Shown: positions 39,848 through 50,909, counted from the first letter of the stretch. The stretch: 64,000 bases of DNA from an uncultured Clostridia bacterium (GCA_947628115.1 CANQYS010000003.1:168-64167), one strand, 5' to 3'. Notes: a model not told the origin generated them from the sequence alone. A program made the numbers and translations.

Positions 39848-39967
39848 AAGTTAACTTCTCTATGGAAAGCACTCCACATAGAAATAAACTATTTATCGCT
39901 GCTTCCTTCCGGACCTGACGAGGTTCATAGGTTTCTATTGAATTGCTCTCCATACAAAAGTTAACTT
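39848..39967 (-). ncRNA. ffs: Signal recognition particle RNA (4.5S/scRNA, small type).
   Basis: The minus-strand sequence contains the conserved domain IV motif GTCAGGTCCGGAAGGAAGCAGC. It is closed by terminal helix aagttaactt...aagttaactt. Canonical position just upstream of dnaX. Confidence 0.7.
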
Positions 39968-40028: not shown

Positions 40029-40775
40029 TTAAAATCTTTTAAATATAACATTTTCAAGTTTTGTATCTTCTAATATTCCTACTCCATCTTCTAATATATT
40101 TCCTGTAGGTAAATCAAGAGTAATATTAGATTTAAATTTTTTATTAGATTCAGTTTCAATTATCAAATCAAAAGATACTTTGAATTTAATATTTTCAAGT
40201 TGTATGCTTGCTTTTGTAAGTAAAGTTCCATCACTTGGTACTTTTTCATTTTGTGAGAAAACATATTTTCCAATATTATTAGTAACAATACTAAAGCCTA
40301 TAGTACCACCTTGATTATTAATTTGCAAAGTTTCTGCATTTGTATTCTGACCACCTAAATATTCTAATGAATTTTCAAATTTATACTCTTCTGAATAGCT
40401 ATATGTATTTATAGAAGTATAAGGTCTATAACTACTAATTATTATATCATTATTTGATTTTGTTATTTGGAAATTTTCAAAGTTTATTTTTTTTATAGCT
40501 TCTTCCTTTTTATAATTACTGTTTTTTTCAATCACAAAATAAATATCGTTTTTTTGCAATATATTAGCATACCAAGCTCCAGTCTCATCATTATTAATTT
40601 CTGGTTCGGCAGTGCTAATTATACTAATTTTTTTTAAGTTAAAGGGTAAATTTTTTTCACCTTCAACATGATATTTAAGCATTAAAGCCATTGCAATTAA
40701 TATTATTATTATGAATATAAAAAAAATAATATATGTATGTATAACTCTTTTTTTTGAGAAACTACTTCGTTTCAT
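40029..40775 (-). CDS. Hypothetical membrane-anchored protein (N-terminal TM helix, extracytoplasmic domain).
   Basis: ORF 248 aa. It overlaps the tadA stop by 4 nt, consistent with translational coupling. No recognised family. Confidence 0.45.
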   Translation of the reverse strand: MKRSSFSKKRVIHTYIIFFIFIIIILIAMALMLKYHVEGEKNLPFNLKKISIISTAEPEINNDETGAWYANILQKNDIYFVIEKNSNYKKEEAIKKINFENFQITKSNNDIIISSYRPYTSINTYSYSEEYKFENSLEYLGGQNTNAETLQINNQGGTIGFSIVTNNIGKYVFSQNEKVPSDGTLLTKASIQLENIKFKVSFDLIIETESNKKFKSNITLDLPTGNILEDGVGILEDTKLENVIFKRF

Positions 40776-41239
40776 TTTTTCCTCCGTTTCTTTGTCCTTA
40801 ACATTTTAAAAAAATCTTTTAAAATATATTCACATTCATCTTTTAGTATTCCTGTTTCTATTTCGACTGTATGATTAAATTTGTAATTTTCAATATTTAT
40901 AACCGATTTGCATGAACCAGTTTTAGGATCAAGTGTTCCTATATAGATTTTTTTTATTCTAGAATTTATAATTGCCCCCATACACATCATACATGGTTCT
41001 AGAGTTATATACATTTCACATTCTTCTAATCTCCATGCTTTTAATTTTTTATTAGCTTTTTGAATTGCTAATATTTCTGCATGTGAAATACCGCTATTTT
41101 TTAATTCTTTTAAATTATGTCCTCTTGCAATTATTTTTCCATTTTTAACAATAATTGCACCTACCGGTATTTCCTCTTTTTTATATGCTTTTTTTGCTTC
41201 TTTCAAAGCCTCTTTCATAAATTTTTCTTTTTCTAACAT
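40772..41239 (-). CDS. tadA: tRNA-specific adenosine deaminase.
   Basis: HAEILAI...LEPCMMCMGAI CDA zinc-binding motifs, 155 aa. Confidence 0.85.
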   Translation of the reverse strand: MLEKEKFMKEALKEAKKAYKKEEIPVGAIIVKNGKIIARGHNLKELKNSGISHAEILAIQKANKKLKAWRLEECEMYITLEPCMMCMGAIINSRIKKIYIGTLDPKTGSCKSVINIENYKFNHTVEIETGILKDECEYILKDFFKMLRTKKRRKK

Positions 41240-41253
41240 ATTAAACCTTCTTA

Positions 41254-41288
41254 TGGTGCACTTAGCTGGATTCGAACCAGCGGCCTCT
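41254..41288 (-). repeat. 35-bp fragment identical to the 3' end (T-arm, acceptor, and CCA) of tRNA-Arg(CCU). Putative att site marking the far end of an integrated island.
   Basis: tggtgcacttagctggattcgaaccagcggcctct is identical at 41254..41288 and 48981..49015, in the same orientation. Confidence 0.7.
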
Positions 41289-41590
41289 GCCTTATGAGAA
41301 ACTCGGTTACAATTTCAAATAGTGTTTGATTTTTTTAAAAGCCTTCATAAATCTAATAAATTGCTATGTTTTTTTAAATTATTTTTTTAATTCGATTTGT
41401 TTTTTTAAATAATTTTAAATACTATTTTATAGAATTCGCGACAATTTAGCGACACACTATTTAAAAATTCTATCCTAATCTTCTAGTCCTCCGTACACTA
41501 TAAAATTCATTCTTTTATATTTTACTTATAATATTCTAGCATAAATTTTATTATTATACAATATACTTACAAGATTATAATATACAAAAC

Positions 41591-41625
41591 TGGATAGAGG
41601 TAATAACCCCTATCCAGTCAAAGTC
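41591..41625 (-). terminator. Rho-independent terminator after the 491-aa MazF-like gene.
   Basis: ctggatagaggtaataacccctatccag hairpin plus T-run on the minus strand. Confidence 0.5.
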
Positions 41626-41643
41626 ATTTTGTGGATTATAGTT

Positions 41644-43119
41644 TTATGCAAATCTCTTGGCAAATACTTTTAATACAGCCATAAGAGAAATCTTCGGACA
41701 ACTCTCCACTAATTCAGGATGCAAATCCAACCATTTCTTAAAGTTTTCCTTCAAAATCGACTTAATGATCTCCTTTTTTACTTTAGGGTACATATTGTGC
41801 AATTCAAGGATAACATTTTCGTAGTTGATTCTCTTAATATCACAAGCAGCCACAAAGGACTGAGTAACAATTCTCTCTGATGTTGTCATACCAATATCAG
41901 TCAAAAAGTTATCAACCTGTTCTTTGACTTTTTTGGTAGGATCAAGTTTTTTCAGAGATTCTCCAATAATATCTAACAGGAAAGATTCCTCACTACCGAC
42001 CTTTTTTGCAGCTTTTTTAGGTTTAGGCTCAGTTGTAGTAACATCCGAGTTGTCAGCATTTACAGGCTTTGACTCTGTATCATCACCTTCAGTTGCATTC
42101 TCCTCACAAGTAGTTTTGACTGTTTCCTCATCCATAGCTACATTTGTTTCGGCTACTGCTGTTTCATCTTCGGTTTTGGCAACTTCAACAATTTCATTGT
42201 CAAAATCAGTTTTGATATCATCATCAGTCATTACAATATTACCTGTAAAATCAAATGTAGTACTTAACTTATCCAAAACCTTAGCAAAGAATTCAGGAGT
42301 AGCCTTGCCGATAACCTCTTGGAATCTTTCAGCTCTCAAGTATCTTCCCTTATCCAACAATGCTGTGCCACCAGTATAATAGTCGTTTTTATAAACGACA
42401 TCTTCAGGAACATCAAATGTAAGATAGGAAAGAGAAGTCAAGTTTTCCCTGATTTTGGTAATAGGCACTAAATATGCCATACCACCATTGGTAGTGCTAC
42501 ATACAATAGCAGAAACATGACCACCGTTGATTTCTCCTGCAAGGTGAATACCATAGTTACAATCTACAATATCTCCTACAGAGTATTCGATAGATCCCTT
42601 TTTGTTATATCTCATTGAGATTTCATTTATGGAAGTCAAGATAAACTCTCCGATTTCCTTTTCAGGGACATTCATCCTATACATTGCCCAGTAGGCAGTT
42701 CTCATAAATTTGTTGATTAAATTTTCAACATATTCATTTTCAAACTCTACCTTCTGGATAATCAAGTCATCTTCACTCTGTGGACCAACTACAGTAGGCT
42801 TGTTTTCAGGTTCGGCGGTTTCTTCGACAGTATCCTCAGACTTCGGCTCATCAACAATAGTAACACTATGAGAAGTTTCTACCGAAGTAGATTCATCAGA
42901 GGTATTGTCAATCATAACATTCAAAATGTTGTAATACTGGTCGATTAACTCTATAACAGAATCAATCATAGTATCATCAACATTTTCAACTGCGACAAAG
43001 CTGTTTTCTAAGTCAATCTGAATCCGACAGGAAATCTTGTTGACCCTTTTAATTAAGGAAACAACACTTCCTTCTTTTTTGGTAGTTACCTTAAATGTTA
43101 TTTTCTTCATTCTGTTCAT
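41644..43119 (-). CDS. Multi-domain protein. N-terminal domain shared with the upstream paralog, acidic linker, divergent MazF/PemK-like domain, acidic low-complexity region, and a C-terminal Spo0A_C-like helix-turn-helix domain.
   Basis: Residues ~180-290 (GDIVDCNYGIHLAGEINGGHVSAIVCSTTNGG...TALLDKGRYLRAERFQEVIG) align to the EndoA/MazF fold. The C-terminal ~70 aa resemble the Spo0A C-terminal domain. GC content is about 38%, against about 25% for the host. Confidence 0.5.
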   Translation of the reverse strand: MNRMKKITFKVTTKKEGSVVSLIKRVNKISCRIQIDLENSFVAVENVDDTMIDSVIELIDQYYNILNVMIDNTSDESTSVETSHSVTIVDEPKSEDTVEETAEPENKPTVVGPQSEDDLIIQKVEFENEYVENLINKFMRTAYWAMYRMNVPEKEIGEFILTSINEISMRYNKKGSIEYSVGDIVDCNYGIHLAGEINGGHVSAIVCSTTNGGMAYLVPITKIRENLTSLSYLTFDVPEDVVYKNDYYTGGTALLDKGRYLRAERFQEVIGKATPEFFAKVLDKLSTTFDFTGNIVMTDDDIKTDFDNEIVEVAKTEDETAVAETNVAMDEETVKTTCEENATEGDDTESKPVNADNSDVTTTEPKPKKAAKKVGSEESFLLDIIGESLKKLDPTKKVKEQVDNFLTDIGMTTSERIVTQSFVAACDIKRINYENVILELHNMYPKVKKEIIKSILKENFKKWLDLHPELVESCPKISLMAVLKVFAKRFA

Positions 43120-44275
43120 CCTCCTTTTTGATTAGGAAACTGTTTACTAAACGGATAAAATCGATAGTAGGAGATTTTCTGAACTTAAACTGTTCTTTTA
43201 TTCTCGCTACAATCAGCCTCTTAATCTCATCTTTCTCAACATTGTGCTCACTTTTAGCAACACTATCACATAATGTTTCTACATTGAAATAAGCATCTTT
43301 GGGCGAGATGAGTATTGCTTTGAAAAGGTATTGTACGCCGTTTCTTTGCATATCAAAGCCAAACAACTCAAGGATTTTTTCGGCTTTTATCTTATCAGAA
43401 TCTCTAGCTTGAGCAATTTTTAAAAGCTCGTTTACATCAATCAGAGATAACAACTGTACTTGTACCATATTCAAGTCTTTGCGTTCTTTAGGTGCATTAG
43501 TATCAAACTGGGGTACATCTCTATACACAGGCTTATCCACATACACCTTTTCAGTTTTGGTAATTACTTTTTCTTGCCTTTGCAAATTCAGCGAAATATC
43601 TATGATCTCCTGCATCTTATTCATGAATTCAGGTGTCATAGTTCCAATAAATTTGCGTAATCTTGTCTTGTCAACTGTTCGGATTTGTTCAGCCATAACA
43701 ACATTTTCTTCCATTCCAACACGAATTACATCATAGTCAATCATGTTTTCATTGGAAAAAACGAAGTGATAGTGAACAGGAACTCTTTTTTTTTGCTTGG
43801 TCGTACAAGATAGTACAATAGTAGTAGGCGAATGAGAATTTCCATCATCATTTTGCACAACTATTACATACCTCTTGTTTCCTTGCTCGCTGCCATAGGG
43901 TTCTCCGAAATCGCACAGATATACCTCACCTCGTTTTACAGTAGAATAGAGTAAATCATATTTCTCTGTGATTTGAGGTGCAAGTACAACATCCGAAGTT
44001 TTTTCTTCAACAACAGCTTTTCCTTTAGTGGAACTGGAAACAATTTCATCACTTTTAGGAAGATCAAATTCATTCAGAGTGAGTGGAAATACTTCACCAA
44101 AGAAGTTTTTAACATTTCTAATGGTTAGACCATTACAAAGTTCATCCAACAACTCATCAGAAATTTCACCATCTAAAGTGATTACCTGGTCAGAAATACT
44201 TGCCCTGATTTTATATTTGACAAGCAATTTACTAACCCGGCAGATGTCGAATGTTCTTGTTTGTAATTGTAACAC
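43091..44275 (-). CDS. Multi-domain protein containing a canonical EndoA/MazF (PemK) toxin domain between an N-terminal domain and a Spo0A_C-like C-terminal domain. Apparent GTG start with an AAGGAGGG ribosome-binding site.
   Basis: VKRGEVYLCDFGEPYGSEQGNKRYVIVVQNDDGNSHSPTTIVLSCTT...EQIRTVDKTRLRKFIGTMTPEFMNKMQEIIDISL aligns nearly motif for motif to B. subtilis EndoA. C-terminal GVQYLFKAIL...LCDSVAKSEHNVEKDEIKRLIVARI resembles the Spo0A_C domain. It overlaps the downstream gene by 29 nt. Confidence 0.6.
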   Translation of the reverse strand: MLQLQTRTFDICRVSKLLVKYKIRASISDQVITLDGEISDELLDELCNGLTIRNVKNFFGEVFPLTLNEFDLPKSDEIVSSSTKGKAVVEEKTSDVVLAPQITEKYDLLYSTVKRGEVYLCDFGEPYGSEQGNKRYVIVVQNDDGNSHSPTTIVLSCTTKQKKRVPVHYHFVFSNENMIDYDVIRVGMEENVVMAEQIRTVDKTRLRKFIGTMTPEFMNKMQEIIDISLNLQRQEKVITKTEKVYVDKPVYRDVPQFDTNAPKERKDLNMVQVQLLSLIDVNELLKIAQARDSDKIKAEKILELFGFDMQRNGVQYLFKAILISPKDAYFNVETLCDSVAKSEHNVEKDEIKRLIVARIKEQFKFRKSPTIDFIRLVNSFLIKKEDEQNEENNI

Positions 44276-44517
44276 TATGTAGCCCTCCTTATTAAATTTT
44301 TTTGGTTCTGGTTACAAAATACTTGTAATATCACACTCCTTTTTTATTGACATTTGCTAGACTCCAAAAAATATATTTTCTGGAATTTTCACAAAATTAT
44401 GTAAATATTATATCATTATTTTTTTGATTTTTCAATAGTATTACCACTAATTCAAATAAAATATAAAATGCAACTTAAAACAGCTAATACATCAACTGTT
44501 TTGAGTTGCATAAAATA

Positions 44518-45006
44518 TTACTTATTAAGATTTCTTTGACACTTTCTGTAAAGCTTGCGCCACGTCATTCTTTCGCCCATCCTAGAAAAAATGTTAGTAG
44601 TATGAAGCCAATAATATGTGGACGAATCACAGAAGCGATGTCCTATTGCTCTGATATGCCTTTTGATTGCGTGCATTATTTTTACTAACGCAACATCATC
44701 AGCAGTGCTAAGAATCTGCTCCAAAACCTTGTCTGAGACATAAGGCAAAATCCAGCTTACTTTGTACGCAAGATATTCTTCCTGCTTTATCTGCGCTGCC
44801 AAATTACTTACAATTTTGACCTGATCATCAGTTGAGAACACCTGGATATATCTATAGTGATATTTCACTAAATCTTTCATAAGTTTTTTGCGACAGCCTT
44901 CTTTAGTCTCGATGCAGTTTTGAATACTTGCTAATGTTTGGCGATTACCTGTCTCCAGATACGCATCAATTGAGTTTGTAAGTTCCCGATATTCGTTATA
45001 ATCCAT
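44518..45006 (-). CDS. Hypothetical Arg-rich protein (162 aa) in the GC-richer part of the island.
   Basis: ORF with locally elevated GC content. No recognisable family. Confidence 0.4.
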   Translation of the reverse strand: MDYNEYRELTNSIDAYLETGNRQTLASIQNCIETKEGCRKKLMKDLVKYHYRYIQVFSTDDQVKIVSNLAAQIKQEEYLAYKVSWILPYVSDKVLEQILSTADDVALVKIMHAIKRHIRAIGHRFCDSSTYYWLHTTNIFSRMGERMTWRKLYRKCQRNLNK

Positions 45007-45145
45007 AATGATTTCCTCCTTTACAAGTGTTTAATTTAACTTTTCGGTGTTTTTGATATATTAAAAGTGGTCCAAAAAATTAGGAAGTTCTAATTGAAAA
45101 ATGGTCCACTTTTAAAATACTCTAAATATATAGTAAAATATATAT

Positions 45146-45910
45146 TTGGAGGCGAAAGGAATGATAAAATTAATGGATAAAGGAGCAATAATTAAATTAA
45201 AGGAACAAGGATATTCTAATAGACAAATACAGAAATTAACAAAAATAGATAGAAAAACAGTTAGTAAATATTGGAATGAATATTTAGAAAATCTTAAAAA
45301 ATTAAGTAATGAAAAAGATTCTTTGAAAATAATAGAAATACAAGAAGCAATAACTTCAGAACCTAGATATAATGTTCAAAGTAGAATGAGAAGAAAATTA
45401 ACAGATGACTTTTTTGTTCATCTAAAAGACATTTTAAATTCAGAAGAAGCTGCTATTGAGTATATGGAAAGTATTTTAATAAAACTAAATGAAAATAGTA
45501 AAATTGAAGAAGAAAAATTACATTTAAAGACTACTAAACCGCCACTAGAATTAGCTAATATAAAAGAAAGTATTGTTAATAAATACAGTTTCATACAAGT
45601 TGAAAATAATTTTTACTCTGTTCCTGAATACTTAGTTGGTTTTAAAGTTACAAGCAAAATTTACTACAATAAAATTCTCATTTATTCAAATAATGAATTT
45701 GTTTGTGAGCATAAAAAATTAGATGGATGTAAGAAGATAAGTGCCGATATTAGACATTACTTAAAAACACTTACCTTCAAACCTGGTGCCTTGAAAAACT
45801 CCTATGTTTTAAAAAGTAATCCAAAACTCAAATCCATCTATGATAGATATTATACCAATAATCCTAAAAAATTCATAGATATAATATCAAAAAATAAAGA
45901 AAAAAAATGA
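45146..45910 (+). pseudogene. istA: IS21 transposase IstA remnant. The DDE catalytic core is deleted.
   Basis: See the IS21 element. 254 aa against about 400-500 aa for intact IstA. Confidence 0.55.
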
Positions 45911-46045
45911 TGAAGAATTATCTAAAATCCTAACGACTAATTCAGAAAATTTATCTGAACTAACAAGATATAGTAATAATATAAATAATTTAACGAGAGT
46001 TCAAACTAGTATGTATAATAAAATAATGATAGGAGTTGTAAATAA

Positions 46046-46482
46046 ATGAATATAAAAGAAAATTGTAAAATATTAAAATTGTCATATATATTTAAAAATT
46101 ATGAAGAAGAAATAAAGGAAGCAAAACAAACTAAAAAAGATGTTGGAGATTTTCTAGATGAACTTTTAGAAGGAGTGCCTTAAATGCATATAAGAAAAAG
46201 TTTGAGAAATACGATTTAGTAATACTAGATGAATTAGGTTATGTATCATTTGATAAAGAAGGATGTGAAATATTATTTAATCTATTATCGAATAGAAATG
46301 ATAAAGGATCTATCATAATAACAACAAATTTAACATTTGATAGATGGGAAGAAATATTTAAAGATGCAATGCTCACAGGAGCTATGGTAGATAGGCTAGC
46401 ATACAAAGCACATATACTTGATATATCAAGAGATGTAAGTCATAGATATGAAGAAACTTTATCTTGGAAAGAAAATAAATAA
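46046..46482 (+). pseudogene. istB: IS21 helper ATPase IstB remnant. The AAA core is deleted and the frame is disrupted.
   Basis: Conserved C-terminal IstB motifs are present. An internal stop at about 46183 breaks the N-terminal piece. Confidence 0.55.
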
Positions 46483-46764
46483 CTAATTTTTATGTTTGAA
46501 AAAGTGGACCATTTTTTCAAATATAACTTGGACCAATTTTCACTTGACAAATACAGTAATCTCAAAAATCAGTAGTCTAAATAAATTTCGGATTTCGGTA
46601 AGAAGAAATCCTACTAAAAGCTTATGCTATCCATATAATTCTCAAAATTTGAACTTTATTCAGAATTATGGTATACTTTATATAGATGGTAAATTTATGT
46701 TAATGCCATCCGATATTTCGGAGGTATTAACTCCGAAATATGAAAATTCATAGGAGGTTTTACC

Positions 46765-47073
46765 ATGGAAAAAATGAAAGTTGCACTTATTGGACTAAGG
46801 TTCAATGCGGATAAGGCGGTGAACACAGCAACAATTAACTTACCCATGTATTCAAAAATTTTATCTGTAACGGCAAAAAATGATAAACCTTGCCTGTGGG
46901 TAAATTTTATGGCTCCATCAAATTATTTCTTTACTAAAAAAGCATGGCGTGAGTTCCAATTTGTTATTGTGCGGTGCAATTATGACGAATTTGAAATTGA
47001 TGGGCACAATTATATTGCCACTATCGAGGTTGACAACAATTTATTCGCCATATTTTACAAAAAGATACAGTAA
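46765..47073 (+). CDS. Hypothetical protein (102 aa).
   Basis: ORF with an RBS-like aggaggtt upstream, followed by a palindromic terminator. Confidence 0.4.
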   Translation: MEKMKVALIGLRFNADKAVNTATINLPMYSKILSVTAKNDKPCLWVNFMAPSNYFFTKKAWREFQFVIVRCNYDEFEIDGHNYIATIEVDNNLFAIFYKKIQ

Positions 47074-47084
47074 TTCATTTTTTT

Positions 47085-47140
47085 TCAAGTATTAATAAAC
47101 GGTGCACATAGAAATATGTGTACCGTTTATTAATACCATT
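47085..47140. terminator. Bidirectional palindromic terminator between convergent genes.
   Basis: ttaataaacggtgcacatagaaatatgtgtaccgtttattaa, a near-perfect 19-bp inverted repeat. Confidence 0.5.
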
Positions 47141-47591
47141 TTTCATATCTATCTTTTTTCTTTGTTTTAGCAATATCTTCTTGCTCTTTCCTCATTTGTT
47201 TTTCAATTTCTATAACTTTCTTAACATTTGGTGTATCTTCTAAAATATAATTTGCTATTTTTATATTTTTTCTGTGTCTATTCAATATTGTAGTACAATT
47301 ATCTCGTTTTGATTTATACTCTTTTATTAAGTTATCATCTATGCAATTTCTTAATTTATTCCTATATTTTTGCCTTAAGTTAGTAATGTCTTCAATTTCT
47401 TTTTCAGTTTGTGAAATATAACTTTTTACATCATCTACTGTTTTTAGTTTTTCTGATACAATAAGTCTAATCCCATTAGAATATCGCTCCAATTTTCTAA
47501 CCTCTTGTTTCATTTCTGGAGATAATGGAGTATAGCGTGGCTTTTCTTTTGGTAGTAGATCCATAAAATAGTAAAAAGATAAGAATAACAT
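47130..47591 (-). CDS. Hypothetical charged coiled-coil protein (153 aa). Possibly a mobilization/replication protein remnant.
   Basis: ORF only. Upstream (47603..47960) are out-of-frame fragments suggesting a decayed larger gene. Confidence 0.3.
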   Translation of the reverse strand: MLFLSFYYFMDLLPKEKPRYTPLSPEMKQEVRKLERYSNGIRLIVSEKLKTVDDVKSYISQTEKEIEDITNLRQKYRNKLRNCIDDNLIKEYKSKRDNCTTILNRHRKNIKIANYILEDTPNVKKVIEIEKQMRKEQEDIAKTKKKDRYEKWY

Positions 47592-48040
47592 ATCAATTCC
47601 ACTTAATTTTTTATATTTTTAAAATTTCCTTTTAATCTATGAACTTTGTATTTATTCTTCTTTCTAGGCTTAGTAAATTCTAAATATCTATTTTGATAAT
47701 AATATGGGTTATTTTCAACTGTTATTGCAATATTTTGTGGTAAATATTTTTCTCCTAAATGATACATTCTTACAGCCTTTTTATGATATGTATCCATTAA
47801 ATTTTGATAGTGGATATTTATTTTCCAAACTACCTATGTAAAAGTAATTAGGTTCGTTAAAGAATAAGTATAGTCTATTCTTAATAATTACTTGATGTGG
47901 CTCTACATACGCTAAATTGGTATGTTCCACAATGTGCAGGTAACCTTCTTTAATTTCTGGTTTAACCTGCTTTTTTCAATATTTTTGGTCAAAAAAAGAC
48001 CGTTCCTTAATTTTTATTTTAAATAAAACTTGGAAATATT

Positions 48041-48817
48041 GTGTTTTTATGTTATACTTATAAAAAATATATGGAGGATACGATAATGGGAGAAAGATTT
48101 GACGACGATAGAAAAGAAACTATAACTGAAGAACAAAAAGCAGCAAGATGGGATGCAATACATTCACGAGTAACAAATGTTGAAAAAATCAGACAGCAAT
48201 ATGATGGATGGCTAGAAACAGATGAAAGACTAGCCAAACAATTAGAACAATGTAAAACACCTATTTTAGATTTAGGATGTGGAATAGGAATAGATACATT
48301 GCATTTAGTTGAAAATGGACATAGAGTTATTGCTTGTGATTTTTCAACTGAAGCTCTTAACCAAGTAAAACAAAATATTCCAAACGAAAAAGTAAAAGTA
48401 TTAAAGTTTAATATGAAAGAAAAATTTCCTTTTGGTTCAGAGCTTTTTGAATTTATAATTGCCAACAAATCTATTCATTATTTCTCTGAAAAGGAAACAA
48501 AAAATTTAATACATGAGTTATATAGAATACTTAAAACTAATGGAATATTTGCATTTGTTGTAAATTCAACTAATGATAGCAATTTTGGTGCAGGACAAGG
48601 TAAAATGCTTGAAGAGAATTTTTATGAAGTTAGAGGAACTACTAAAAGATTTTTTGATGAAGAATCCTTAAAAAATTTTTTTGATAATGAACATTGGGAA
48701 TTTATTTATATGAAAGAAGATGAAATACAGGGAGATAGAATAAAAACAATACAACTACAGAATAATAGTGATAACAACAAAAAAATAACATGGACTTGTA
48801 TGGTAAGAAAAAAATAA
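48041..48817 (+). CDS. Class I SAM-dependent methyltransferase.
   Basis: ILDLGCGIGIDTLHLVENGHRVIACDFS motif I and post-I acidic residue. Confidence 0.7.
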   Translation: MFLCYTYKKYMEDTIMGERFDDDRKETITEEQKAARWDAIHSRVTNVEKIRQQYDGWLETDERLAKQLEQCKTPILDLGCGIGIDTLHLVENGHRVIACDFSTEALNQVKQNIPNEKVKVLKFNMKEKFPFGSELFEFIIANKSIHYFSEKETKNLIHELYRILKTNGIFAFVVNSTNDSNFGAGQGKMLEENFYEVRGTTKRFFDEESLKNFFDNEHWEFIYMKEDEIQGDRIKTIQLQNNSDNNKKITWTCMVRKK

Positions 48818-48980
48818 ATATTATTTGTCTTTGTCATTGACGCAAGTCCTAACCCCCTATGAGTTTTGACCTGTGGTACAAAACTCGGGGGATACATACT
48901 GAAAAAACTAATAAAAAAATACCATCCTTTTTAGAATGGTATTATATATTCTGTTCTATTAGTTCGAACAGATACGTTAT

Positions 48981-49057
48981 TGGTGCACTTAGCTGGATTC
49001 GAACCAGCGGCCTCTCCCTTAGGAGGGGAGCGCTCTATCCTACTGAGCTATAAGTGC
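48981..49057 (-). tRNA. tRNA-Arg (anticodon CCU).
   Basis: The minus-strand sequence folds as a cloverleaf, GCACTTATAGCTCAGTAGGATAGAGCGCTCCCCTCCTAAGGGAGAGGCCGCTGGTTCGAATCCAGCTAAGTGCACCA. The anticodon loop is CUCCUAA, so the anticodon is CCU. The T-loop is TTCGAAT and the 3' end is CCA. Confidence 0.85.
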
Positions 49058-49181: not shown

Positions 49182-50909
49182 TTATTTTTTATTGTTATAA
49201 AGTTCTTTATAATATCCATTTAAAACTATGAGTTCGTCATGCGTTCCCATTTCTTTTATTTTTCCGTCTTTTATGAAAATTATTAAATCTGCTTCTTTTA
49301 TTGTTTTTAATCTATGTGCAATTATAAAAGAAAATTTATTTCTTAAAACTTCTTGTGTTGCTTTTATTACTTTTTGTTCGAATTCTAAATCTAGATTAGA
49401 TGTAACCTCATCTAAAATAAGAATATCAGTATTCTTCAATATTGCTCTTGCAAAATTTAAAAGTTGTTTTTCTCCATATGATATTTTATCAGTATAAATA
49501 TCTATTAGTGTATTATATCCTTCTTCTAAAGAAGTTATTTTATCATGGAGTCCTATTTTTTTGCATACATTAACAACCTCATCGTCACTTATTTCTCTAT
49601 TGTTTCCGTATTTTATATTTTCCATTATGCTCATATGAAAAATTATAGGTTCTTGAAATACATAACTAATATTTTTTCTCAAACTGTTTAAATCATATTC
49701 TAAATAATTTATATTATTTATTAAAATTTCGCCACCGGTTATATCATAAAATCTTGGTATTAAATTAACTAATGTAGTCTTTCCGCATCCACTTTTACCA
49801 ACCAAAGCAATTTTTATTGGTCTATTAACTTCAAAATTAATATCTTTTAATATCTCATTTATTCCATCATAACTCATTTTAACATGATTGAATTTTATGC
49901 TTTTAACATTTTCTAATTTTACAGTAGATTCTTTTTTTTCTTTTTCTGTTTTTACCATATTATATATTTTCATGTAAGAATTATAATTACTAGTAGCTTC
50001 ATTTTTAAATTCTACAATTATATTAATACGATAATCTAAATCTGCAATGTAATTTCTAAATAAAATAATTAATGCTAAAGAACTCATTCCTGAAGCAATA
50101 TTAATTCCACCAATATATATGATAGCTAAAGTAGTAAAAAAACTTACAAAGCTAAATAAATATTTATGTATATATATAATTTTATTATATTTTAGTACTT
50201 CATTAGTAGTATTCTTAAGCAATTCATCTATTTCACTTATATTACTTTCTTCAATTCTTAAAGATTTATTAGTAGCATAGCTATTTATAAATTCATTGGT
50301 TTTAGACGATAATTTAAGTCTTATATCTTGTAATTTTTTTATTACACTATAATTTTTTTTATATAATGGTTTCAAGGAAAAATAACAACTAAAAAATATT
50401 ATTGTTGTAATTAATGCTAGTTTATAATTCAAAAATAATATAATAATTATTATATAAAAAATATCTTTATATTCTATTGGATATATTCTCATATAAGTCC
50501 AAGGAAATAGTAAAGATGCATTTTTAGCTTCTGTTGTATTTAAAGAAATAAGTTCTCCTACTTGATAATTGTCAATATCCTTAATTTTAGACTTAATCAC
50601 GCTTCTAAAAAATTTACCCTGTATTGCTTTATCTTCGTCTACCATTAAGTCAGCACGTTTTTGATTATATATATATATTTGCGCTGTTCTTAAAATAATT
50701 AAAAAAATATAAATGCAAATACAAAAATAAACATGCTCAAATTTATTATTAGTCAAATATGTATCAATTATTAGTGATGTAATTATCGGCCCAGAAAATA
50801 CTAAAATACTTGGTAATAGTCTAAATAAATACCAAAAAATAATTCTTGATTTATTACCTCCAAACTCTAGTAATCTTTTTTTATTGCTTATATTATTCAT
50901 AATTATCAC
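49182..50909 (-). CDS. ABC exporter, fused permease and ATP-binding subunit (half-transporter B).
   Basis: Six-TM N-domain. GKSGCGKTT Walker A, LSYGEKQLL signature, ILILDEVTS Walker B. Confidence 0.85.
   Translation of the reverse strand: MIIMNNISNKKRLLEFGGNKSRIIFWYLFRLLPSILVFSGPIITSLIIDTYLTNNKFEHVYFCICIYIFLIILRTAQIYIYNQKRADLMVDEDKAIQGKFFRSVIKSKIKDIDNYQVGELISLNTTEAKNASLLFPWTYMRIYPIEYKDIFYIIIIILFLNYKLALITTIIFFSCYFSLKPLYKKNYSVIKKLQDIRLKLSSKTNEFINSYATNKSLRIEESNISEIDELLKNTTNEVLKYNKIIYIHKYLFSFVSFFTTLAIIYIGGINIASGMSSLALIILFRNYIADLDYRINIIVEFKNEATSNYNSYMKIYNMVKTEKEKKESTVKLENVKSIKFNHVKMSYDGINEILKDINFEVNRPIKIALVGKSGCGKTTLVNLIPRFYDITGGEILINNINYLEYDLNSLRKNISYVFQEPIIFHMSIMENIKYGNNREISDDEVVNVCKKIGLHDKITSLEEGYNTLIDIYTDKISYGEKQLLNFARAILKNTDILILDEVTSNLDLEFEQKVIKATQEVLRNKFSFIIAHRLKTIKEADLIIFIKDGKIKEMGTHDELIVLNGYYKELYNNKK

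What the first reader, a model, noticed from the sequence alone, without database searches (positions are those of the whole stretch)
41254..49015. About 7.8 kb island integrated at tRNA-Arg(CCU), bounded by a 35-bp direct repeat of the tRNA 3' end
The intact tRNA-Arg (48981..49057, minus strand) has its 3' 35 nt duplicated exactly at 41254..41288 next to tadA, in the orientation expected for site-specific integration into a tRNA gene. Between the repeats lie genes of foreign character. The left 3.7 kb is about 38% GC against about 25% elsewhere. There is also an IS21 remnant and several decayed fragments. No integrase gene remains, so this looks like an old, immobilised island.
Basis: partly seen in the sequence, partly recalled or inferred. 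Interest (0 to 1): 0.6.

Follow-up and report, generated by a model that had tools for sequence, protein, structure and literature searches.

The report
Decayed island in tRNA-Arg gene
This is the immobilised remnant of a small mobile element that inserted into the anticodon loop of a tRNA-Arg(CCU) gene in an uncultured gut Clostridia bacterium; it is an ordinary kind of feature, but intact relatives carry an uncharacterised MazF-type gene pair and, unusually, break the host tRNA and bring their own replacement.

Summary
tRNA-Arg(CCU) lies at 48981-49057 (-). Its 3' 35 nt recur exactly at 41254-41288, 14 bp from tadA, and nowhere else in the window. The repeat really spans 45 nt (43/45 identical) and reaches the anticodon loop.

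Five related genomes have tRNA-Arg(CCU) directly upstream of tadA-p248-SRP RNA-dnaX, which is the empty site.

The tadA-proximal 3.1 kb holds a ~290-bp arm and two genes, p491 and p394. It is 92-96% identical to a 5-kb element in another species whose flanking genes are only 60-84% identical. That element keeps a 524-aa tyrosine integrase. The same arm end abuts at least four different host tRNA-Arg 3' halves at the anticodon loop, which shows site-specific mobility.

The window has no integrase. Between cargo and tRNA lie IS21 istA/istB remnants, the C-terminal half of a Tn4451-like relaxase, p162, p102 and a methyltransferase. The attR core is mutated (CTCATAAG).

The cargo is a conserved pair: a MazF endoribonuclease fusion (p394) and a MazF-fold paralogue lacking the catalytic Arg (p491). 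I infer a toxin/antitoxin-like module.

The intact relatives split the host tRNA and carry their own. This resembles phage "tRNA-dependent lysogeny".

The parts
48981..49057 (-). Intact tRNA-Arg(CCU), the attL side. The 45-nt repeat copy is 48981-49025 and the anticodon-loop core CTCCTAAG lies at about 49018-49025.
   Evidence: ARAGORN; Rfam tRNA 73.4 bits; near-identical to the tRNA at the empty site of L003.
41254..41298 (-). attR: orphan 3' half of tRNA-Arg(CCU). It matches the intact gene at 43 of 45 positions (35 exact). The core is mutated to CTCATAAG. It lies 14 bp upstream of tadA.
   Evidence: The junction lies at the same position as in L083, L127, L128 and L131.
41299..41643 (-). 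Conserved right arm of the integrative element. It holds the p491 terminator hairpin, then about 290 bp of AT-rich sequence with repeated TTTTAAAAAAAT..ATTTTGAAA motifs (putative integrase arm sites), and ends ...ACCGAGTTT at the core.
   Evidence: Alignment with L083, L127 and L131: conserved up to the core, then host-specific; repeat family D1 in L083.
41644..43119 (-). p491 (488 aa from the start called in the NCBI record). Three-domain protein: N-terminal alpha/beta domain, degenerate MazF-fold domain (no Arg at the catalytic position), C-terminal helical domain. It is the cargo partner of p394.
   Evidence: Pfam PemK E 0.008, below cutoff; PHROG MazF-like 6e-5; hhalign to the p394 family; AF2 model and Foldseek MazF hits with TM 0.71-0.79 at 14-18% identity; 195 homologues.
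43091..44275 (-). p394: N-terminal beta-alpha-beta-beta-alpha-beta domain, bona fide MazF/PemK endoribonuclease domain (residues about 112-231), C-terminal helical domain.
   Evidence: Pfam PF02452 E 2.4e-23, 82.9 bits against a cutoff of 23.1; phmmer to B. subtilis EndoA/MazF 4mdx E 4e-19, with the residues aligned to Arg25 and Thr48 conserved; Foldseek 43-44% identity; 288 homologues.
44276..44452 (-). Upstream (promoter) region of the cargo operon. Homology to every other copy of the cassette ends here.
   Evidence: blastn end points 44447-44468 in L083, L088, L118, L124 and L127; the sliding-identity drop.
44518..45006 (-). p162: intact small ORF of unknown function, GC 33%. It belongs to a small family of about 160-aa proteins and is not an integrase fragment.
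   Evidence: No Pfam, PHROG or NCBIfam hit; 31 representatives, full length.
45146..46460 (+). IS21-family remnant: istA' at 45146-45910 (HTH plus Mu-transposase C-terminal domain, DDE core missing) and istB fragments at about 46046-46460.
46765..47073 (+). p102: small ORF with a weak DUF7352 hit, function unknown.
   Evidence: Pfam E 0.0034, below cutoff; identical in strain contig L095.
47130..47933 (-). Remnant of a Tn4451-like mobilisable element. It holds the C-terminal ~210 aa of a ~456-aa PF03432 relaxase (frameshifted; nuclease domain missing), fused by an internal deletion to a piece of the element's far end (47800-47933).
   Evidence: Homologues of 455-462 aa with PF03432 at 81-84% identity covering only the C-terminal part; 89% nucleotide identity to L096-L099, which encode resolvase, TnpV, NikA-like and relaxase.
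48041..48817 (+). Class I SAM-dependent methyltransferase (ORF as listed; in L095 it is called at 243 aa, so it probably starts at a later ATG). Convergent with the tRNA; a hairpin plus T-run lies between them. It is unclear which element brought it in.
   Evidence: Pfam Methyltransf_25/11 E 1e-18; identical in L095; absent from relatives L083 and L085.

Best explanation
The region 41254-49025 is the immobilised, composite remnant of a tyrosine-integrase integrative element that targets the anticodon loop of tRNA-Arg(CCU).

Shown: ancestrally, tRNA-Arg(CCU) lay directly upstream of tadA. An element whose conserved right arm ends ...ACCGAGTTT[CTCCTAAG] recombined with the anticodon loop. This left the displaced host 3' half next to tadA as attR, 41254-41298. 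The element's cargo is a two-gene operon, p394 (a MazF endoribonuclease fusion) and p491 (a MazF-fold paralogue).

Inferred: in this lineage the incoming element carried a copy of the tRNA 3' half in its attP. This is the canonical mode with a ~45-bp common core, so an intact tRNA was rebuilt at attL (48981-49057). Later an IS21-family IS and a Tn4451-like mobilisable element landed in the integrase-proximal part. Deletions then removed the integrase and most of those invaders, and the attR core picked up a substitution (CTCATAAG). The island can therefore no longer excise.

Inferred, cargo function: p394 and p491 form a toxin/pseudo-toxin module, either addiction or defence, that favours retention of the DNA carrying it. 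p394 keeps the catalytic Arg and Thr of MazF. p491 has the fold but not the Arg, and may cap or regulate p394 in a heterodimer.
For: The repeat and its orientation are.

The empty site occurs in five relatives, one with a near-identical tRNA.

Identity to L083 changes sharply at the island edges. It is 92-96% across 41400-44450, 76-78% in tadA, and 60-84% across the other flanking genes (p248, SRP RNA, dnaX, ybaB).

L083/L084 and L127-L129/L132 carry a 524-aa Phage_integrase gene immediately upstream of the same gene pair.

The same arm end joins at least four different host tRNA-Arg 3' halves, exactly at the anticodon loop.

An element 99.85% identical between L127 and L128 sits in two different host tRNA-Arg genes, with matching 5' and 3' halves on either side.

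The window has no integrase.

The junk is identified.

The p491 fold and the loss of the Arg are.

The gene pair is always adjacent. It was seen in about 30 loci at 33-92% identity, in several element types and chromosomal contexts.

There is precedent for closely related integrases using the same tRNA attB with either a ~43-bp tRNA-restoring core or a ~10-bp core plus their own tRNA (PMC10865867).
Against: No relative with the inferred canonical attP (tRNA 3' half next to the integrase) was found. Every integrase-bearing relative seen (L083, L084, L127, L128) uses the other mode, with an 8-bp core and its own tRNA.

The window keeps nothing of the element's left arm, its tRNA or its integrase. 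The way the intact tRNA was restored is therefore inferred, not shown.

Both mismatches between the repeat copies lie in the first 10 nt. This could mean the crossover occurred inside the 35-bp identical block rather than in the loop.

Which element brought in MT258, p102 and p162 is unknown.

The cargo function rests on homology and models of only moderate confidence (mean pLDDT 60 and 66). No PADLOC hit was significant.
Confidence: 0.8

Rival explanations
1. Tandem accretion. An unrelated canonical tRNA-Arg element integrated first. It rebuilt the tRNA and left a host 3' half at its far end. The MazF-pair element, of the tRNA-splitting type seen in L083 and L127, then integrated into the anticodon-loop core still present in that orphan half. 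Later deletions removed the second element's left arm, tRNA and integrase, together with the first element's integrase. On this reading the 44453-48980 debris is partly the first element.
For: All integrase-bearing relatives found have only an 8-bp core and carry their own tRNA, so no canonical variant of this element is documented. The orphan half keeps the core sequence. The interval contains debris of several elements. In relatives, the stretch between the tRNA and the gene pair varies (L085, L124, L005).
Against: It needs an extra, unseen element and integrase. The recognisable debris (IS21, Tn4451-like) belongs to families that, to my knowledge, do not target tRNA genes. It also needs more steps than a canonical attP variant, and canonical variants have direct precedent among related phage integrases.
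Confidence: 0.12
2. Not an integration event. The tRNA 3' half next to tadA is the leftover of a local duplication or rearrangement of the tRNA-Arg locus. The intervening genes are a variable chromosomal region that accumulated insertions.
For: The interval between tRNA-Arg and tadA also varies in relatives without any repeat (L005 has 3.3 kb of ordinary genes, L085 has none of the arm). The gene pair also occurs in plain chromosomal contexts (L091 next to rpoB, L133).
Against: The junction between the conserved arm and the tRNA half lies at exactly the same nucleotide as in elements that carry an integrase and split different host tRNAs. Identity steps sharply at that junction. The GC content is foreign.
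Confidence: 0.03
3. The element first integrated in the tRNA-splitting mode, as in L083. The host tRNA was later repaired by homologous recombination with DNA from a relative carrying an intact tRNA-Arg, and this replaced the element's left part.
For: The left flank (PGM, ATP_bind_3, tRNA-Arg) is syntenic among relatives, so homology for one recombination end exists. L124 shows that the left part of such elements can be remodelled.
Against: There is no homology for the second recombination end inside the element. It does not explain why the junk lies where it does.
Confidence: 0.05

Closest known systems
Canonical tRNA-integrated genomic islands and prophages with tyrosine integrases, anticodon-loop class (common core = 3' half of the tRNA; my own knowledge of Williams 2002 NAR, plus the 30-45-bp cores described in PMC10865867)
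   Same: An intact tRNA at one end and an orphan 3' half (45 nt, starting in the anticodon loop) at the other, in direct orientation. Foreign GC content. An empty site in relatives. A tyrosine integrase next to the tRNA in intact relatives.
   Different: The window has no integrase and no left arm. Its interior is a patchwork of other elements' debris. The intact relatives actually found use a different (short-core) mode.
tRNA-dependent lysogeny of actinobacteriophages (Guerrero-Bustamante & Hatfull, mBio 2024, PMC10865867); also prophage Lj965 of Lactobacillus johnsonii, cited there
   Same: In relatives L083/L084 and L127/L128 the attP-attB common core is only 8 bp (CTCCTAAG). The host tRNA-Arg(CCU) is left split in two halves. 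The element encodes its own tRNA of the same isotype about 126 bp inside attL. As in that paper, canonical and short-core variants seem to coexist among related elements that use the same attB.
   Different: These are not phages. They are 5-8 kb elements with an integrase, a tRNA and a MazF-type gene pair (plus a kinase in L127), and there were no hits in IMG/VR. The hosts are gut Clostridia. The window itself does NOT show this mode, because its tRNA is intact and host-type. Dependence on the element's tRNA is untested.
MazEF/PemIK type II toxin-antitoxin systems (B. subtilis EndoA/MazF, PDB 4mdx and 1ne8)
   Same: p394 residues 112-231 are a MazF domain (E 4e-19; about 43% identity). The residues aligned to catalytic Arg25 and Thr48 are conserved. 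It forms a two-gene operon with overlapping genes, carried on mobile elements.
   Different: p394 is 394 aa, with extra N-terminal (ferredoxin-like) and C-terminal (helical) domains. There is no MazE/AbrB-type antitoxin gene. The partner p491 is itself a three-domain MazF-fold protein lacking the catalytic Arg. Gene order and size are unlike any described MazEF.
Tn4451/Tn4453-type mobilisable transposons and IS21-family insertion sequences
   Same: Window 47130-47933 is 77-89% identical at the nucleotide level to elements encoding resolvase/TnpX-like, TnpV, NikA-like and PF03432 relaxase proteins. Window 45146-46460 has istA and istB homology.
   Different: Both are non-functional fragments. 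The relaxase lacks its nuclease domain and is frameshifted. IstA lacks the DDE core, and IstB is reduced to fragments.

Membership tests
tRNA-integrated genomic island (tyrosine-integrase type) | Direct repeat of the tRNA 3' portion at both ends, with an intact tRNA at one end | tested here: met
   35 nt exact and 43/45 overall; 41254-41298 vs 48981-49025; 0 matches in shuffles.
tRNA-integrated genomic island (tyrosine-integrase type) | An uninterrupted target (empty site) in related genomes | tested here: met
   L003, L004, L006, L009 and L011 have tRNA-Arg(CCT) immediately upstream of tadA.
tRNA-integrated genomic island (tyrosine-integrase type) | Integrase gene within the island, usually next to the tRNA | tested here: not met
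   None in the window. Present (524 aa, PF00589) at that position in relatives L083, L084, L127-L129 and L132. The window copy is therefore a remnant, not a functional member.
tRNA-integrated genomic island (tyrosine-integrase type) | Evidence of horizontal origin or mobility | tested here: met
   GC 34-36% against 25%. Identity of 92-96% inside against 60-84% in the flanks. The same arm joined to at least four host tRNA halves.
tRNA-dependent integration (short core plus element-encoded replacement tRNA) | Common core too short to rebuild the tRNA, so the host tRNA is left split | tested here: not met
   The window has an intact host-type tRNA and a 45-nt repeat. The feature is met in relatives L083 and L127/L128, which have an 8-bp core and both halves present.
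tRNA-dependent integration (short core plus element-encoded replacement tRNA) | [quoted passage not shown] | tested here: not met
   The window has only one tRNA. Relatives L083, L127 and L124 carry a 79-nt tRNA-Arg(CCT) scoring 57 bits.
tRNA-dependent integration (short core plus element-encoded replacement tRNA) | The element's tRNA is required for viability of integrants | not testable with these tools
   This needs genetics. It also needs the full tRNA gene set of the host genomes.
MazF/PemK endoribonuclease toxin (PF02452) | Domain match above the curated cutoff | tested here: met
   p394 scores 82.9 bits against a cutoff of 23.1, with PDB EndoA E 4e-19. p491 scores 16.8 bits, below the cutoff, and shows the fold only.
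MazF/PemK endoribonuclease toxin (PF02452) | Catalytic Arg and Thr (B. subtilis Arg25 and Thr48; roles stated from my own knowledge) | tested here: met
   In p394, R135 and T158 align to them and are nearly invariant in the family. In p491 the aligned position is His/Val rather than Arg.
MazEF type II toxin-antitoxin system | An adjacent small MazE/PemI (AbrB- or RHH-type) antitoxin gene | tested here: not met
   No such ORF lies next to p394 in the window or in relatives. The invariable neighbour is the 440-490-aa p491. I therefore do not file the pair as a MazEF system.
MazEF type II toxin-antitoxin system | Toxicity neutralised by the partner | not testable with these tools
   This requires expression experiments.
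IS21-family insertion sequence | IstA with a DDE (rve) catalytic core and an intact IstB ATPase | tested here: not met
   IstA' has only an HTH and the Mu-transposase C-terminal domain, and istB is reduced to about 250 bp of homology. It is a remnant.
MOB relaxase (PF03432) of Tn4451-like mobilisable elements | N-terminal relaxase/nuclease domain | tested here: not met
   Only the C-terminal ~210 aa are present, with a frameshift. Full-length homologues are 455-462 aa with PF03432. It is a remnant.

The most novel reading that the evidence does not exclude
The window's island is a dead copy of an undescribed family of minimal, non-phage integrative elements of gut Clostridia, each made of a tyrosine integrase, a tRNA-Arg(CCU) gene and a two-gene MazF/pseudo-MazF module. 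Their live members integrate by cutting the host's tRNA-Arg(CCU) in the anticodon loop without repairing it, and make the host depend on the element's own tRNA. That would be a tRNA-based addiction, doubled by a new kind of MazF toxin whose antitoxin is a degenerate paralogue. Some lineages (L124) would then have had their native tRNA-Arg(CCU) permanently replaced by the element's.
Probability: 0.4. Interest if true: 0.6.

Novelty: new member of a known kind. Interest (0 to 1): 0.4.

Why it matters
For the window itself, the result is a clean worked example of how a tRNA-targeting island is acquired, colonised by other mobile elements and then frozen. This helps annotation but is not surprising.

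The wider value lies in the relatives it led to. They extend the recently described 'tRNA-dependent lysogeny' logic from actinobacteriophages to tiny non-phage elements in uncultured gut Clostridia. They also show in silico that one element (99.85% identical copies) sits in two different hosts' tRNA-Arg genes.

The relatives also define a widespread, strictly paired and uncharacterised MazF-fusion/pseudo-MazF gene family that moves between several element types. It is a candidate new toxin-antitoxin or defence architecture and could be tested directly.

Tried and rejected
- Megablast of the whole island against PLSDB plasmids and INPHARED phages found no match. A distant blastn of 44453-48980 against plasmids hit only istB.
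- An IMG/VR scan with the p394 family profile found only an unrelated stand-alone MazF, so a prophage origin is not supported.
- PADLOC gave no significant defence-system hit for p394, p491 or p162. The only one was for MT258, a generic methyltransferase match to mad2.
- I tested whether p162 is an integrase fragment and rejected it. It is a full-length member of a small ~160-aa family with no similarity to the L083 integrase.
- From reading the sequence I suspected that the p394 C-terminal domain is Spo0A_C-like. Neither Pfam nor Foldseek supported this, so I dropped it.
- I suspected a serine recombinase fragment upstream of tadA in L008. Pfam did not support it.
- The CAU 'anticodon' in the orphan half suggested a tRNA-Met/Ile origin. 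I rejected this because 43 of 45 nt match tRNA-Arg.
- Exact-protein look-ups of tadA found only near-identical strain contigs (L001, L002). No within-species empty-site allele was recovered.
- I looked for an integrase-bearing relative with a canonical attP carrying the tRNA 3' half. None was found in the 12 context look-ups allowed.
- The profile search of p491 against PDB sequences found nothing. Only the fold search detected the MazF domain.

Full report
OBSERVATION. ARAGORN and Rfam find one tRNA in the window, tRNA-Arg(CCT), at 48981-49057 on the minus strand. Its 3'-terminal 35 nt occur again exactly at 41254-41288 on the same strand. No third copy appears even with 3 mismatches, and 100 shuffles gave none. 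Reading the two sites shows that the similarity runs 10 nt further. 41254-41298 matches 48981-49025 at 43 of 45 positions and stops in the anticodon loop, where the copy reads CTCATAAGGC and the gene reads CTCCTAAGGG. The copy ends 14 bp from the start codon of tadA (40772-41239, minus strand). In tRNA orientation the order is tRNA-Arg, 7.7 kb, orphan 3' half, tadA. This is the arrangement a tRNA-targeting integrase produces. The 41400-44452 segment is 33.8% GC (its genes 35-36%). The rest of the window is 25.0%, and the highest of 200 equal-sized outside windows is 30.1%.

EMPTY SITE. The organism is an uncultured, low-GC gut Clostridia bacterium. The best DnaX match among GTDB species representatives is 73%. 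In five of the closest relatives (L003, L004, L006, L009, L011) a tRNA-Arg(CCT) lies on the same strand roughly 10-120 bp upstream of tadA. It is followed by the same p248, SRP RNA, dnaX and ybaB genes as in the window. L003's tRNA differs from the window's at only three positions, all in the 5' part, and is identical over all 45 nt of the repeat. Contigs carrying exactly the window's tadA protein (L001, L002) are the same strain with the same structure. No within-species empty allele was found.

WHAT WAS INSERTED. The tadA-proximal 3.1 kb contains two overlapping genes, p491 (41644-43119) and p394 (43091-44275), and a ~350-bp non-coding arm (41299-41643).

Homologue searches show that both proteins belong to large families with conserved lengths (288 and 195 hits). 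The two genes were adjacent in every locus examined, about 30 loci at 33-92% identity.

In contig L083 (p394 92% identical) the order is: host tRNA-Arg 5' half, 126 bp, a complete 79-nt tRNA-Arg(CCT), a 524-aa Phage_integrase gene, p393, p488, arm, host tRNA-Arg 3' half, tadA, p252, dnaX. The window is 92-96% identical to L083 across 41400-44450. Identity drops to 76-78% in tadA and to 60-84% in the other flanking genes (p248, SRP RNA, dnaX, ybaB). The steps fall at the tRNA half and at about 44450. The module therefore moved horizontally after the two host lineages diverged.

The arm is conserved in the window, L083, L127 and L131 up to ...ACCGAGTTTCTC. The sequence then becomes host-specific, with four different tRNA-Arg 3' halves. 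L127 and L128 carry an 8.1-kb version of the element that is 99.85% identical between them. It lies in two different host tRNA-Arg genes, whose 5' and 3' halves match each other within each host. Together these results show site-specific integration into the anticodon loop (core CTCCTAAG) and recent mobility of the family.

WHAT IS MISSING OR BROKEN IN THE WINDOW. Homology to all other copies of the cassette stops at 44447-44468, just upstream of p394. No integrase remains: there are no Pfam hits, and tblastn with the L083 integrase gives nothing. Nothing of the left arm or of an element-borne tRNA remains either. Instead, 44453-48980 holds the following:
- p162, an intact ORF of a small unknown family.
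- An IS21 remnant: IstA without its DDE core, and about 250 bp of istB.
- p102, of unknown function.
- The frameshifted C-terminal half of a PF03432 relaxase. It is 89% identical at the nucleotide level to Tn4451-like elements encoding resolvase, TnpV, NikA-like protein and relaxase, and is fused by an internal deletion to another piece of that element.
- A SAM-dependent methyltransferase.
The attR core also carries a substitution in the overlap region (CTCATAAG). The island is therefore a composite and cannot excise. The core module is young relative to the species divergence, so 'old' is only partly right.

HOW THE INTACT tRNA FITS. The integrase-bearing relatives do not rebuild the host tRNA. 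They share only 8 bp with it and bring a tRNA-Arg(CCU) of their own (57 bits in Rfam). This is the logic described as tRNA-dependent lysogeny in actinobacteriophages (PMC10865867).

The window is different. Its tRNA is intact and of the host type (as in L003), and the repeat is 45 nt long. The same paper documents closely related integrases (78% identical) that use one tRNA attB in two ways. One uses a 43-bp imperfect core that rebuilds the tRNA. The other uses a 10-bp core plus a phage tRNA.

I therefore infer that the copy which entered the window's lineage had a canonical attP carrying the tRNA 3' half. This step is inferred, because no such variant was found among the contexts I could inspect.

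Three alternatives remain: tandem accretion into the orphan half of an earlier element; later recombinational repair; and a crossover inside the 35-bp identical block, with the two mismatches inherited from attP. They are listed as rivals or caveats. L124 shows a further end state. There the element-type tRNA is the only tRNA-Arg(CCT) at the locus, the integrase is deleted and no host halves are left.

CARGO. p394 residues 112-231 are a genuine MazF/PemK domain. The Pfam score is 82.9 bits. The phmmer match to B. subtilis EndoA is E 4e-19, and Foldseek identity is about 43%. The residues aligned to the catalytic Arg25 and Thr48 are nearly invariant in the family. The roles of those residues are from my own knowledge. 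The MazF domain is flanked by an N-terminal beta-alpha-beta-beta-alpha-beta domain and a well-modelled C-terminal helical domain with no PDB match.

p491 has the same three-part layout and a MazF fold (TM 0.71-0.79, 14-18% identity). It has no Arg at the catalytic position. No MazE-like gene is present.

I propose that the pair works as a toxin plus a degenerate-paralogue regulator, serving addiction or defence. This is inference. PADLOC and PHROGs give nothing beyond 'MazF-like'. The pair also rides in other integrase-bearing elements (L118, L134) and sits in plain chromosomal contexts (L091 next to rpoB, L133). It is absent from IMG/VR.

VERDICT. As a feature of this window it is an ordinary decayed tRNA island, a new member of a known kind. 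It gains some interest from its uncharacterised MazF/pseudo-MazF cargo. It also led to related live elements that use tRNA-disrupting integration with a replacement tRNA, outside phages and outside Actinobacteria.

Noticed in passing
L127 1-8170 and L128 1-8150 (Logan SRR27999951, SRR30814260); L083 7921-13024: Small non-phage elements (5-8 kb) hold a tRNA-Arg(CCT), an integrase and the MazF pair; L127 also has a Ser/Thr kinase and a 218-aa ORF. They split the host tRNA-Arg(CCT) at the anticodon loop (8-bp core CTCCTAAG) and do not rebuild it. Copies 99.85% identical sit in two different host tRNA genes. This is an analogue of phage tRNA-dependent lysogeny in gut Clostridia.
   Followed up: partly
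L124 9474-9552 and flanks: The element-type tRNA-Arg(CCT) is the only one at this locus. Only the integrase's upstream region survives, and no host tRNA halves or arms remain. The native tRNA gene appears to have been permanently replaced by the mobile element's copy.
   Followed up: partly
window 39858-39954 (-): Bacterial small SRP RNA (64 bits) lies between dnaX and p248. This is the conserved tadA-SRP-dnaX-ybaB-recR neighbourhood of Firmicutes, with an extra 248-aa membrane-anchored ORF (p248) between tadA and the SRP RNA that is conserved in all close relatives.
   Followed up: no
L006 699-792, L008 3941-4033, L085 13347-13443: Relatives have a tRNA-Ser(CGA) between tadA and p248. The window has none there, and its tadA and p248 overlap by 4 nt.
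   Followed up: no
L096 8407-9880, L097 8289-9762: The intact Tn4451-like mobilisable elements closest to the window's relaxase remnant carry KwaA/KwaB (Kiwa defence) genes and a Bro-N protein as cargo.
   Followed up: no
L005 5168-8432; L085 7248-9813: The interval between tRNA-Arg(CCT) and tadA, or between the tRNA and the MazF pair, differs in each relative. L005 has glyoxalase, AraC, GNAT and choloylglycine-hydrolase genes; L085 has an unknown 260-aa ORF plus NUDIX. Neither has repeats, so this junction is a general hotspot of gene turnover.
   Followed up: partly
window 49182-52659 (-): Two tandem ABC exporter genes (575 and 588 aa, about 21-23% GC) lie between tRNA-Arg and the conserved ATP_bind_3/PGM genes. 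L085 has a divergent pair at the same place (29-40% identity). L083, L005 and L124 do not, so this may be another insertion on the other side of the tRNA.
   Followed up: no
L091 9374-9449, L101 4868-4943, L106 9636-9711: In more distant copies of the MazF pair (50-60% identity), a tRNA-Met(CAT) on the opposite strand lies 300-550 bp upstream of the p394 homologue. L106 also has an integrase homologue nearby. This may be a second tRNA target for elements carrying this cargo.
   Followed up: no
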